A model generated the notes under the pieces. That model did not search any database and was not told the origin of the DNA. It was given only the letters and a program-made list of their open reading frames with translations. A program made the position numbers and the translations under genes. Positions 6,841 to 10,663 of a stretch of 64,000 nt of DNA are shown here, one piece after another. How positions within the stretch are numbered: the first letter of the stretch is position 1; the number at the start of each line of letters is the position of its first letter. Source of the stretch: the human T2T-CHM13v2.0 reference genome, Homo sapiens; the NCBI RefSeq assembly GCF_009914755.1, contig NC_060929.1. One strand, written 5' to 3'.

Positions 6841-7182
6841 TGCTGTGGTTTGAACATGTCACCTCCAAAATGCATATGTTGCCTATGTGATAGTATTCAC
6901 AGATGGGGCCTTTAAAGGATAATTAGGCCTGAGGACTCCTTCTTCATTAATGGAATTAAAGCCCTTTTGAAACAGGCTGTATACAGTGTTCGGCTAGCTT
7001 GCTCTCTTACCCTTCCACCTTCTGCCATGTGAGGATGCAGCAAGGAGGCCTTCACCACACCAAATGCTGGTCCCTTGACCTTGGGCTGCTGGCCTCCCAA
7101 ACTGTGAGAAAATCATTTTCTTGTCTCAATAAATTACCCAGTCTTGGGCATTCTGTTACTAGCAACCCAAAAGGAATAAGAT
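6841..7182 (+). mobile_element. MaLR MST-type solo LTR
   Basis: tgctgtggtttgaacatgtc...gccatgtgaggatgcagcaagga...aaattacccagtct...ttctgttactagcaac. Confidence 0.85.
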
Positions 7183-7398
7183 GCTAAGTTTTATGTAAAG
7201 CCAGCTTGTTAGGGGAAAAAATCAGAATCATCAGCTAGTCTCAGAGTAGTAACACACACAGAAAACTGGAACTAACCATTTTGGTCTGAGCTTAGTGCTA
7301 GCTGTGTTTGATGAATAGAACTAGGTGATGGCTTCAGCTCTTTTGGCCTTACGCATAGGAAAAACTATCTTTTTTTCATTCTAAATCTGCACATTTGG

Positions 7399-8260
7399 CC
7401 CGGCCGCCCCGTCTGGGAAGTGTGGAGCGCCTCTGCCCAGCCGCCCCGTCTGGGAAGTGAGGAGCGCCTCTGCCCGGCCGCCCTGTCTGGGAAGTGAGGA
7501 GCGCCTCTGCCTGGCCGCCCATCGTCTGGGATGTGAGGAGCGCCTCTGCCCAGCCGGCCATCGTCTGGGATGTGAGGAGTGCCTCTGCCTGGCCGCCCTC
7601 CGTCTGGGAGGTGAGGAGCGCCTCTGCCCGGCCGCCCTTCGTCTGGGAGGTGAGGAGCGCCTCTGCCTGGCTGCCCCGTCTGGGAGGAAGTGAGCGCCTC
7701 TGCCTAGCCGCCCTGTCTGGGAGGTGAGGAGCGTCTCTGCCCGGCCGCCCCGTCTGGGAAGTGAGGAGCGCCTCTGCCCGGCTGCCCCGTCTGGGAAGTG
7801 AGGAGCGCCTCTGCCTGGCCGCCCCGTCTGGGAAGTGAGGAGCGCCTCTGCCTGGCCACCCTTCGTCTGAGATGTGAGGAGCACCTCTGCCCAGCCTCCC
7901 TTTGGCTGGGAGGTGAGGAGTGCCTCTGCCCGGCCGCCCCGTCTGGGATGAAGCGAGCGCCTCTGCCCGGCCGCCCCGTCTGGGAAGTGAGGAGTGCCTC
8001 TGCCCGGCCACCCCATCTGGCCACCCCATCTGGGAAGTGAGGAGCGCCTCTGCCCGGCTGCCCCGTCTGGGAAGTGAGGAGCGCCTCTGCCCGGCCGCCC
8101 CTTCTGGGAAGTGAGGAGCGCCTCTGCCCGGCCGCCCCGTCTGGGAAGTGAGGAGCGCCTCTGCCTGGCCGCCCCATCTGGGAAGTGAGGAGCGCCTCTG
8201 CCTGGCTGCCCCATCTGGGAAGTGAGGAGTGCCTCTGCCCGGCTGCCCCATCTGGGAGGT
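7399..8260 (+). repeat. SVA VNTR, roughly 22 units of 37-40 bp
   Basis: Tandem GCCTCTGCCCGGCCGCCCCGTCTGGGAAGTGAGGAGC and variants. Confidence 0.95.
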
Positions 8261-8795
8261 GTACCCCACAGCTCCGAAGAGGCAGCGACCATCGAGAACG
8301 GGCCATGATGACAATGGCGGTTTTGTCGAAAAGAAAAGGGGGAAATGTGGGGAAAAGAAAGATCAGATTGTTACTGTGTCTGTGTAGAAAGAAGTAGACA
8401 TAGGAGACTCCATTTTGTTCTGTACTAAGAAAAATTCTTCTGCCTTGGGATGCTGTTGATCTATAACCTTACCCCCAACCCCATGCTCTCTGAAACATGT
8501 GCTGTGTCAACTCAGGGTTAAATGGATTAAGGGCGGTGCAAGATGTGCTTTGTTAAACAGATGCTTGAAGGCAGCATGCTCGTTAAGAGTCATCACCACT
8601 CCCTAATCTCAAGTACCCAGGGACACAAACACTGCTGAAGGCCGCAGGGACCTCTGCCTAGGAAAACCAGAGACCTTTGTTCACGTGTTTATCTGCTGAC
8701 CTTCTCTCCATTATTATCCTATGACCCTGCCACATCCCCCTCTCTGAGAAACACCCAAGAATGATCAATAAATACTAAAAAAAAAAAAAGAAAAA
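7399..8795 (+). mobile_element. SVA retrotransposon, SVA_A-like, 5'-truncated within the VNTR
   Basis: GC-rich VNTR (7399-~8260), then HERV-K-derived SINE-R with old-subfamily sequence (cagctccgaagaggcagcgaccatcgagaacggg). AATAAA at 8767-8772, A-tail 8777-8795. No CCCTCT hexamer or Alu-like domain. Confidence 0.95.
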
Positions 8796-8857
8796 ATTTT
8801 TGTTGTTTTAAGCCACATTTGTGATATTTTGCTACAGCAGCCACAGCACAGATATAG
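8796..8857 (+). mobile_element. MLT1 LTR 3' end at the start of the transduced segment
   Basis: ttgttgttttaagccacatttgtgatattttgctacagcagccacag resembles the MLT1 U5 terminus. Confidence 0.7.
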
Positions 8858-9941
8858 CTGGTAACAGAGTTCTTTAGCCTCCAAAATACAAGCCTGGGGT
8901 AAATAACTATTGAATTTGGCCACATGGAAATCAGGAAGAATGTAATAAGCATCATCGATGGATGGGATGACCTGGGAGATCGTGGCAAGTTTAAAGCTAA
9001 TTGGAAGTTGGCAACCAAAAAGTCCTGTCTTGCAAATTGCCAGGAAATTGCCAAGAAAACCTTTAGAAAACATGATTAAAGATGGAGAAACCCGGCTGAC
9101 TCCCTGGTTTCTGAAGAGGTGCTTAGGCATTTAAATGAGACTGACGAGACTTCACACTGTACCCTTCAGAAGGGCAGACACTCACGAGATCGTCAACCAC
9201 GGCTCCCTCGCTGGGAGGCAGACACAGAGCTGGAGGCAGCGGCCACAAACTAGGTGGGCAGAGAGGCGTCAGCATCGGGACTTGCAGGAGGCCCTGGGAA
9301 GGAACAGGCAGCGGTGGGGCCTGGACAGCCTTGGGGAAAGGAAGTTACTTGGAGGAGACCAGGGGCTTGCATTTGGGCCAAAACCAAGGACGAGATCAGC
9401 TGGTCCCAGGGAACTCTGGAGCCCAGCACCCCACCATGGGTGCAGGGGCCTGACAACCCAACAGAAGGCTGTGGGTACCGGGCACCAGCCTGTGGGGGGT
9501 CTGAAGGCTGCTGCCCAGCCACACATGTCCTGGTCCCGAACAAAGGGTTCAAGAGGCACCTGGAGCCCCGCCCTCCTCAGAGCAGCCTCTTAGCCTCAGC
9601 TGGTTGTTGGCCTTTGGTCACCCCACATGCCCTGACAGTGGGGCCTGGCCTCAGAAAGGGGCCCCTCCATTTGTACTTTCTATCTGATCCTTGACACAGT
9701 GCTAACACCAAAGACCAAACCCGAATCTTGGTTCACATACTCTGCAAAGAAATGACTAAGACTAGTTCTTCTGGAGGTCAGTTTTAGAACATGTTTATTC
9801 TAACTTAATTCTGCCTTATCTCTGTGCACCAAGAAAACTATCTGCACATGTGTAGTAAAATGTGAAGGTACCTTCATTTTGTTTGTACACTAAACTTTTA
9901 AGAAATATCTCACTTTTAAAATAAATAAATAAATAAAAAAT
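8796..9941 (+). other. 3'-transduced sequence (~1.1 kb) carried by the SVA, ending in a second (AAAT)n/A tail
   Basis: Lies inside the TSD aaatctgcacatttgg (7383-7398 and 9942-9957). Tail aaaataaataaataaataaaaaat at ~9918-9941. Confidence 0.9.
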
Positions 9942-10342
9942 AAATCTGCACATTTGGTTTTATTTACCATGTCAACCAAGATGTACACTGCCAACCTGTT
10001 TTTCTCTCTCATTGCTCCATGTCTGCCCTTACCCATTTTTAAAACCATAGTCACTTGCTGGTAGTGCTTCCTTGTCCTGCCTTGTCCCATGTGGAGATGC
10101 AAATCTCACCTACTCCTCTCACGTGTGGAGACCTTACAATATCAGCCTCCATGTGCCCCCAAACTTGGGAGGTACCTGGAATCCTCTCCTTGGCTCAGCA
10201 TACCAACTGTAATTATCACCTGGGATTCCTTTTTACAAAGTAATATTTTAAAGTTAATATTTAATCTTAGAAGCAATATAATAGTGTCAGAGGGCTGAAA
10301 ACTGAAAATATATGTAAGCATCAATCATTAGGAGGCCAAATT

Positions 10343-10663
<321 letters not shown>

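What the first reader, a model, noticed from the sequence alone, without database searches (positions are those of the whole stretch)
7383..9957. SVA_A insertion carrying a ~1.1 kb 3' transduction of foreign genomic DNA
Seen: the 16-bp sequence aaatctgcacatttgg directly precedes the truncated VNTR (7383-7398). It does not follow the SVA's own A-tail at 8777-8795. It reappears only at 9942-9957, after 1.1 kb of extra sequence and a second A-rich tail. The whole 2.5 kb is therefore one target-primed insertion, and the empty site CT/AAAT resembles the L1 endonuclease site TT/AAAA. Established: SVA transcripts can read through their polyA signal and mobilise flanking DNA (e.g. the AMAC/SLC35G copies). 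Inference: 8796-9917 is a copy of a distant source locus. I cannot tell whether this event is already catalogued.
Basis: partly seen in the sequence, partly recalled or inferred. Interest (0 to 1): 0.8.

Follow-up and report, generated by a model that had tools for sequence, protein, structure and literature searches.

The report
Old SVA carrying immunoglobulin-locus DNA
An old, front-truncated SVA jumping element in an RNF180 intron carried 1.1 kb of non-coding DNA from the antibody heavy-chain constant-region cluster on chromosome 14; this is an ordinary example of a well-known process.

Summary
The 16-mer AAATCTGCACATTTGG occurs exactly twice in the window, at 7383-7398 and 9942-9957. It brackets a 5'-truncated SVA (VNTR, SINE-R, AATAAA, 13-A tail), 1,132 bp of extra DNA (8790-9921) and a second A-rich tail.

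The extra DNA has three paralogs in this genome, all on chr14 in the IGH constant-gene cluster. They lie 6-9 kb upstream of the IGHE, IGHG2-like and IGHG1 exons, on the gene strand, and are 95-96% identical to the window copy. An old repeat runs unbroken across the junction point on chr14 but is cut there in the window, so copying went from chr14 to chr5.

No chr14 copy has an SVA beside it, and none lies within 200 kb. No sibling insertion exists. The window copy is an outgroup to the three chr14 copies: 3.6-4.0% against 1.2-1.9%.

Best reading (0.7): a classical SVA 3' transduction roughly 15-20 Myr ago from a source SVA since lost. Rival (0.15): reverse-transcriptase template switch. The SVA_A label and the outgroup empty site could not be tested. 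This is a known kind of event of low interest.

The parts
7383..7398 (+). 5' copy of the target-site duplication, AAATCTGCACATTTGG (possibly 17 bp, starting at T 7382)
   Evidence: Exact 16-mer found only here and at 9942-9957; sequence read.
7399..8261 (+). SVA VNTR, truncated at the 5' end. No hexamer or Alu-like region precedes it.
   Evidence: Tandem Repeats Finder reports arrays at 7398-8261 with period 37/74/111. The VNTR/SINE-R join is shared with 39 other loci at 91-94% identity.
8262..8776 (+). SVA SINE-R region, with the element's own poly(A) signal AATAAA at 8767-8772
   Evidence: Full-length matches of 96-97% to other copies; 40 scored of 2,893 candidates. Signal read.
8777..8789 (+). 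Internal A-run (13 A), the SVA's own tail, carried inside the insertion
   Evidence: Other SVA copies match through it, and the chr14 copies begin just after it.
8790..9921 (+). 1,132 bp copied from the chr14 IGH constant-region cluster. It is non-coding and starts with GAAAAAA inside an old interspersed repeat.
   Evidence: 95.3-95.9% identical to three chr14 copies. The unique core is found at 4 of 4 candidate places only. Direction shown.
9889..9905 (+). Weak poly(A) hexamers ACTAAA (9889-9894) and AAGAAA (9900-9905), 33 and 22 nt before the end of homology
   Evidence: All three chr14 copies keep both hexamers, and a GT-rich stretch follows the homology end on chr14. AAGAAA is named as a weak signal in PMC12593883 (passages).
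9922..9941 (+). Second, degenerate A-rich tail (TAAA repeats) that is absent from chr14
   Evidence: chr14 continues with acttggttttgtg instead.
9942..9957 (+). 3' copy of the target-site duplication

Best explanation
This is a classical SVA 3' transduction.

An SVA once sat in the IGH constant-gene cluster on chr14, in the same orientation as the IGH genes. It was inserted at the A-rich site ct/GAAAAAATTTTT inside an old repeat, a few kb upstream of a switch/constant unit. A transcript of that SVA read through the element's own AATAAA. It ran 1.13 kb into the flank, which holds no AATAAA or ATTAAA, and was cleaved at a weak site (AAGAAA/ACTAAA followed by a GT-rich stretch).

The L1 machinery then inserted this RNA by target-primed reverse transcription into an intron of RNF180 on chr5, at ttcattct/aaatct. 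Reverse transcription stopped inside the VNTR, which gave the 5' truncation. A 16-17 bp target-site duplication formed.

The event is old, roughly 15-20 Myr. The source SVA is no longer present at any of the three surviving chr14 paralogs. Either it was never fixed, or it was removed by the deletions, unequal exchange or gene conversion that have reshaped this cluster.

Shown: the anatomy, the single duplication, the donor locus, the direction of copying, and the absence of a source and of siblings in this genome. Inferred: read-through as the mechanism, the former source SVA, and the date.
For: - One exact 16-bp duplication brackets the whole 2.56 kb and occurs nowhere else in the window.
- The SVA parts are in the canonical order and the same orientation: VNTR, then SINE-R matching other copies at 96-97%, then AATAAA and a 13-A run. 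The VNTR/SINE-R join is shared with 39 other loci.
- The extra DNA follows the A-run directly and is colinear with chr14 DNA over 1,132 bp.
- It begins at GAAAAAA, the kind of A-rich site expected for the source element's own insertion. On chr14 an old repeat crosses that point unbroken: 6 of 40 scored hits are other copies that span it. The window matches only from that point on.
- It ends 22 nt after AAGAAA and 33 nt after ACTAAA, with a GT-rich stretch next on chr14. A tail absent from chr14 follows.
- No canonical signal lies in the chr14 copies before that point.
- Loss of the source is usual. For 16% of transduction-carrying polymorphic SVAs no source was found (PMC12593883, passages).
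- The IGHC cluster is a hotspot of structural change (PMC12926203, passages).
Against: - No SVA lies beside any of the three chr14 copies, nor anywhere in 200 kb of the cluster. The defining partner of a transduction is therefore missing.
- There is no sibling insertion sharing the tail, so there is no independent sign that a source at this place was ever active.
- The A-run at the start of the copied DNA would equally favour a template jump.
- The poly(A) signals used are weak variants.
- The empty site in an outgroup could not be examined.
Confidence: 0.7

Rival explanations
1. Template-switch chimera. L1 reverse transcriptase started on a polyadenylated transcript of the IGHC intergenic region and copied 1.13 kb. 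At the internal A6 run its T-rich cDNA end paired with the poly(A) tail of a separate SVA RNA, and it went on copying the SVA. No SVA ever sat on chr14.
For: No source SVA lies at or near any chr14 copy, and no siblings exist. The switch point is an A-run adjoining the SVA A-run, which is the microhomology such a jump would use. A template switch between an mRNA and an SVA RNA has been proposed for an SVA-CKS1BP copy (PMC12593883, passages).
Against: It needs an independent germline-expressed, polyadenylated, unspliced RNA from an intergenic part of a B-cell locus, and none is known to me. It is much rarer than read-through: in PMC12593883 most 3' events are read-through, and one case is assigned to switching. 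That case was argued from the lack of an A-tail between the parts, whereas here a 13-A run separates them. The start at an A-rich, L1-endonuclease-like site is equally what a former SVA insertion predicts.
Confidence: 0.15
2. Two separate events. A retrocopy of the chr14 RNA inserted first, and an SVA later landed exactly at its 5' end, or the reverse order.
For: Nested insertions are common in introns. The SVA part and the chr14 part each end in an A-rich run.
Against: Each event should have its own duplication. Only one pair exists and it brackets the whole. Nothing resembling the 16-mer follows the SVA A-run, and the sequence after it (GAAAAAATTTTTG) is chr14 DNA. The junction would have to fall by chance to the very base.
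Confidence: 0.03
3. The source SVA still exists but is polymorphic, or sits on an IGHC structural haplotype that this assembly does not carry. This is a sub-case of the best explanation, listed apart because it is separately testable.
For: IGHC has many structural haplotypes and genes missing from the reference assemblies (PMC12926203, passages). This assembly itself carries two IGHG4-like units.
Against: With about 4% divergence the event is old. An SVA polymorphism surviving that long is unlikely. The main text of the IGHC long-read survey has 0 mentions of SVA, retrotransposon or mobile element; its supplements were not read.
Confidence: 0.05

Closest known systems
SVA 3' transductions, e.g. 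the SLC35G/AMAC copies spread by an SVA_C (Xing et al. 2006, recalled and not readable here; named in the T2T repeat preprint 10.1101/2021.07.12.451456, passages)
   Same: The SVA's own signal and tail are internal. Flanking DNA follows in the same orientation and ends in a second tail. One duplication brackets the whole.
   Different: The cargo here is non-coding intergenic DNA and not a gene. It is a single copy with no siblings, and no source SVA survives at the donor locus.
Transduction-carrying SVAs without a recoverable source (PMC12593883, passages)
   Same: The donor locus can be named from the cargo, but no SVA is found there. Those authors ascribe this to loss from the population or low frequency.
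   Different: Those are young, polymorphic D-F1 insertions. This one is old (about 4% diverged), and its donor lies in a cluster that has since been rearranged and homogenised.
Template-switch SVA-CKS1BP chimera (PMC12593883, passages)
   Same: SVA sequence is followed by sequence of another RNA within one insertion.
   Different: That cargo is a processed, 5'-truncated mRNA with no A-tail at the join. Here the cargo is unspliced genomic-colinear DNA and a 13-A run sits at the join.
L1 3' transduction (general mechanism; recalled, and described passages)
   Same: Read-through of a weak element signal to a downstream site, followed by target-primed reverse transcription.
   Different: The carrier is the non-autonomous SVA, mobilised in trans by L1.

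Membership tests
SVA retrotransposon | Composite VNTR joined to a SINE-R (HERV-K-derived) region, a join shared across the family | tested here: met
   A probe across the join (8170-8350) is spanned by 39 other loci at 91-94% identity; 40 scored of 2,726 candidates. The 5' hexamer and Alu-like parts are absent because the copy is truncated inside the VNTR.
SVA retrotransposon | Ends in AATAAA followed by an A-tail | tested here: met
   AATAAA at 8767-8772 and 13 A at 8777-8789. Other SVA copies match through this end.
SVA retrotransposon | L1-type insertion: a target-site duplication at an A/T-rich nick site | tested here: met
   An exact 16-bp duplication. The target reads ttcattct/aaatct. 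The resemblance to the L1 endonuclease consensus is recalled.
SVA_A subfamily | Subfamily-diagnostic positions in the SINE-R | not testable with these tools
   No repeat library or consensus is held. The nearest copies are only 96-97% identical and the cargo is about 4% diverged, which fits an old subfamily. A 16-bp deletion said to separate A from D (PMC5640379, passage) could not be placed against the distant HERV-K-like pieces.
Retroelement 3' transduction | One duplication brackets the element plus the extra DNA, with none after the element's own tail | tested here: met
Retroelement 3' transduction | The extra DNA maps elsewhere and is ancestral there | tested here: met
   Three chr14 copies. 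The old repeat is unbroken on chr14 and cut in the window. The chr14 copies sit in blocks of 3-8 kb of wider homology.
Retroelement 3' transduction | The extra DNA ends at a poly(A) site and carries a new tail | tested here: met
   AAGAAA and ACTAAA lie 22 and 33 nt upstream, a GT-rich stretch follows on chr14, and the tail is absent from chr14. The signals are weak variants.
Retroelement 3' transduction | A source element directly upstream of the donor sequence (corroborating; often lost) | tested here: not met
   No SVA lies within 4-5 kb of any copy or in the 200 kb examined. Only the window spans the SVA/cargo join. For this reason the mechanism is given at 0.7 and not as proven.
Retroelement 3' transduction | Empty site, with one copy of the duplicated target, in an outgroup species | not testable with these tools
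   No other primate genome is held (message). The flanks have no paralog that could stand in.
Template-switch chimeric retrocopy | The 3' part derives from an independent polyadenylated cellular RNA | not testable with these tools
   No expression data are held. The cargo is colinear with genomic DNA and holds no conserved ORF.

The most novel reading that the evidence does not exclude
No SVA ever sat in the IGH cluster. The insertion is a template-switch chimera. It would record an unannotated, polyadenylated, germline-expressed transcript from the intergenic DNA a few kb upstream of the IGHE/IGHG switch units, running in the sense of the IGH genes. Under either reading, the chr5 copy is a snapshot of IGHC intergenic sequence from about 15-20 Myr ago that escaped the later homogenisation of the chr14 paralogs. 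It can serve as a built-in outgroup to polarise gene conversion there.
Probability: 0.15. Interest if true: 0.35.

Novelty: new member of a known kind. Interest (0 to 1): 0.2.

Why it matters
As a mechanism it adds nothing new, because SVA 3' transductions number in the hundreds. Two modest points of use remain.

First, it places a former (or virtual) SVA transcript inside the IGH constant cluster, upstream of switch units, in a locus whose history is hard to reconstruct.

Second, the chr5 copy has evolved free of the concerted evolution acting on the three chr14 paralogs. Those differ from each other by 1.2-1.9%, but each differs from the chr5 copy by 3.6-4.0%. The chr5 copy therefore gives a dated reference state for that block.

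The insertion lies in sense orientation in an RNF180 intron and brings an AATAAA and a GC-rich VNTR. No effect on the gene was tested.

Tried and rejected
- **Sibling or parent copies.** The unique core (8880-9660) and a probe across the SVA/cargo join (8700-8900) found none.
- **SVA anywhere in the IGHC cluster.** Only 72-79% matches to the SINE-R part turned up at two HERV-K-like LTR pieces. These are not SVAs.
- **Empty site from paralogous flanks.** Both flanks are single-copy, so this route is closed.
- **Donor paralog.** Informative sites split 3/2/1 among the three copies, so no donor can be named.
- **Subfamily.** Alignment to the HERV-K-like pieces gave no clean 16-bp indel, so this is inconclusive.
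- **Function in the cargo.** There was no Rfam match in 7000-10400. The 152-aa ORF at 9135-9593 is private to the window copy; the chr14 copies have GTG at the start, frameshifts and stops. It is a chance ORF.
- **Ten bases of the duplication inside the cargo.** ATCTGCACAT recurs at 9840 and in all chr14 copies. In the control, 2.6% of 4,782 random window 16-mers share 10 or more bases with the insert. I treat it as chance.
- **Catalogues.** Xing 2006 (PMC1693794) and the published T2T repeat paper are not held, and the preprint's Table S13 is closed. Whether this event is listed therefore stays open.
- **Literature searches.** SVA + transduction + RNF180 gave 6 papers, none on the topic. SVA + IGHE + IGHG1 + retrotransposon gave 0. 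IGHC + SVA + mobile element gave 0.

Full report
**Observation**

The 16-mer AAATCTGCACATTTGG is present at 7383-7398 and 9942-9957 and nowhere else in the window, even with two mismatches allowed. Shuffles gave a mean of 0.13 matches, and 1 of 100 reached two. A T precedes both copies, so the duplication may be 17 bp.

Between the two copies lie, in order:
- a tandem array of 37-bp GC-rich units at 7398-8261;
- a 515-bp stretch, 8262-8776, that matches thousands of places in the genome, with the best other copies at 96-97% over the full length (40 scored of 2,893 candidates);
- AATAAA at 8767-8772 and 13 A at 8777-8789;
- 1,132 bp of other DNA at 8790-9921;
- a degenerate A-rich tail at 9922-9941.

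A probe across the array/SINE-R join is spanned by 39 other loci at 91-94%. The left part is therefore an SVA truncated inside its VNTR.

**Where the extra DNA comes from**

A search of the window's own genome with 8796-9941 found three further full-length copies. All are on contig C14 (chr14), minus strand, at 99,860,195-99,861,319, 99,925,772-99,926,893 and 100,023,596-100,024,719, with 95-96% identity. The unique core 8880-9660 has 4 of 4 candidates, namely the window and these three.

BLAST of the window element with 1 kb of flank against 10 kb round each chr14 copy matched 8790-9921 only, at 95.3-95.9%.

Translating 200 kb of chr14 shows immunoglobulin constant exons on the minus strand. 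PDB searches confirm a gamma-1 type gene and IGHE (E = 1.6e-80). The other names (IgG2, IgG4, pseudo-gamma, alpha, pseudo-epsilon) rest on motifs recalled from memory.

The three copies lie about 6.0 kb upstream of the epsilon CH1 exon, 8.5 kb upstream of the gamma-2-like gene and 9.2 kb upstream of gamma-1, on the gene strand. They sit in longer blocks of paralogy. The corresponding block upstream of the pseudo-epsilon gene and of the two gamma-4-like copies lacks this stretch.

**Direction of copying**

On chr14 the sequence reads ...cccagaactct|GAAAAAATTTTTGTTG.... In the window it reads ...AATAAATACT-A13|GAAAAAATTTTTGTTG....

A 230-nt probe across the chr14 point (160 nt upstream, 70 nt inside) hit the three chr14 copies in full. 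Six of the 40 scored hits are other copies of an old interspersed repeat that run across position 160/161. The window matched only 161-230. The repeat is whole on chr14 and cut in the window, so chr14 is the donor.

**The 3' end**

Homology ends at ...CACTTTT(T)AAA. chr14 continues with acttggttttgtgttttgt, which is GT-rich. The window continues with taaataaataaataaaaaat and then the duplicated target.

AAGAAA and ACTAAA start 22 and 33 nt before the end in all four copies. The chr14 copies contain no AATAAA or ATTAAA in the whole 1.13 kb. AAGAAA is described as a weak signal used by SVAs in PMC12593883 (passages). The other hexamer and the role of GT-rich downstream elements are recalled. This is what a read-through transcript ending at the first usable site would look like.

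**The missing source**

No SVA lies within 4-5 kb of any chr14 copy or in the 200 kb examined. The only matches there to the SVA part are 72-79% hits to two HERV-K-like LTR pieces. A probe across the SVA/cargo join is spanned by the window alone. The chr14 copies cover positions 91-201 and other SVAs cover 1-97 (40 scored of 874 candidates). So this genome holds neither a parent nor a sibling.

**Relationship and age**

In a four-way alignment the window copy differs from the chr14 copies by 3.63%, 4.00% and 3.90%. They differ from each other by 1.15-1.86%. Private substitutions number 33 in the window copy (8 of them CpG losses) against 3, 9 and 7. Informative sites split 3/2/1, so no paralog is favoured as donor. 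K2P distances are 0.037-0.041 and 0.012-0.019.

With an assumed rate of 1.0-1.2e-9 per site per year (recalled), half the distance gives roughly 15-20 Myr, somewhat inflated by CpG decay. That is an inference.

[quoted passage not shown] It also fits the 3-4% distance of the SINE-R to its nearest relatives.

Orangutans already have two alpha and two or three epsilon genes (PMC12633339, passages), so the large IGHC duplication predates the split. The low divergence among the chr14 copies therefore points to later homogenisation. Gene conversion in IGHG is reported in the title of PMC6558194 (search listing only). The chr5 copy escaped that process, which explains why it is the outgroup.

**Mechanism**

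The best reading is read-through 3' transduction from an SVA that once sat at ct/GAAAAAA in one IGHC unit, followed by L1-mediated insertion at ttcattct/aaatct in the RNF180 intron. Supporting points:
- There is one duplication for the whole unit.
- The element's signal and tail are internal.
- The orientations agree.
- The cargo starts at an A-rich site and ends at a poly(A) site.
- Loss of sources is documented: for 16% of transduction-carrying polymorphic SVAs no source was found (PMC12593883).
- IGHC is a hotspot of deletion and duplication (PMC12926203).

Against it, the source is absent and there are no siblings.

The main rival is a template switch from an IGHC RNA to an SVA RNA at the A-run, as proposed for one SVA-CKS1BP copy. 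It explains the missing source, but it needs an unknown germline transcript and is the rarer route.

Two independent insertions are very unlikely, given the single duplication pair.

**Nothing functional in the cargo**

There was no Rfam match. The only sizeable sense ORF (152 aa, 9135-9593) is private to the window copy, because the chr14 copies lack the ATG and have frameshifts and stops.

**Known or new**

The class is well known. The T2T repeat preprint lists 55 high-confidence SVA 3' transductions in this very assembly, with lower bins in its Table S13 (passages; the supplement is closed). Its high-confidence set pairs offspring with identified parents, which this event lacks.

Xing 2006 and the published T2T paper are not held. 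Searches linking SVA with RNF180 or with IGHC genes found nothing on the topic. I therefore cannot say whether this particular event is in print. I file it as a further member of a known kind, of low interest.

**Limits**

No other primate genome, repeat library or expression data were available. The empty-site test, the SVA_A label and the choice between read-through and template switch remain open.

Noticed in passing
L014-L018 (C14:99,865,424-99,911,048): This assembly carries a tandem duplication of about 19.5 kb at 98.7% identity, each unit with a full IgG4-like gene (exons at about 99,876,876-99,878,553 and 99,896,474-99,898,151). It matches the IGHG4 copy-number variation described in PMC12926203.
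   Followed up: partly
C14:99,995,708 and C14:99,883,629-99,884,990 (L027, L016): The paralogous blocks upstream of the pseudo-epsilon gene and of the gamma-4-like copies stop short of the 1.1-kb stretch, so that stretch has been deleted from at least two further units. These are places where a source SVA could have been lost.
   Followed up: partly
C14:99,947,506-99,948,428 and C14:100,003,613-100,004,374 (L022, L028): Two HERV-K-like LTR fragments, 72-79% identical to the SVA SINE-R, lie on the plus strand of the IGHC cluster. They are not SVAs.
   Followed up: partly
window 9840-9849: Ten bases of the target-site duplication (ATCTGCACAT) also occur inside the cargo, about 100 nt before its end, and in all three chr14 copies. 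In the control, 2.6% of 4,782 random window 16-mers share 10 or more bases with the insert, so this is probably chance.
   Followed up: yes
window 9135-9593 (+): A 152-aa ATG ORF in the GC-rich middle of the cargo exists only in the chr5 copy. It was created by private changes and is not conserved on chr14.
   Followed up: yes
window 10341-10449: A stretch of about 110 bp downstream of the insertion matches, at 78%, a stretch near the chr14 gamma-1 copy (L010 6683-6792). It is presumably an unrelated short interspersed repeat, and the hub's list of masked stretches of 100 bases or more does not include it.
   Followed up: no
window 8790-8840; L009 6132-6291: The first 50 nt or so of the cargo are the end of an old interspersed repeat with many copies of 75-90% identity genome-wide. 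A second, different repeat of about 90% identity lies 100-160 nt upstream of the junction on chr14. Neither family was named, because no library is held.
   Followed up: partly
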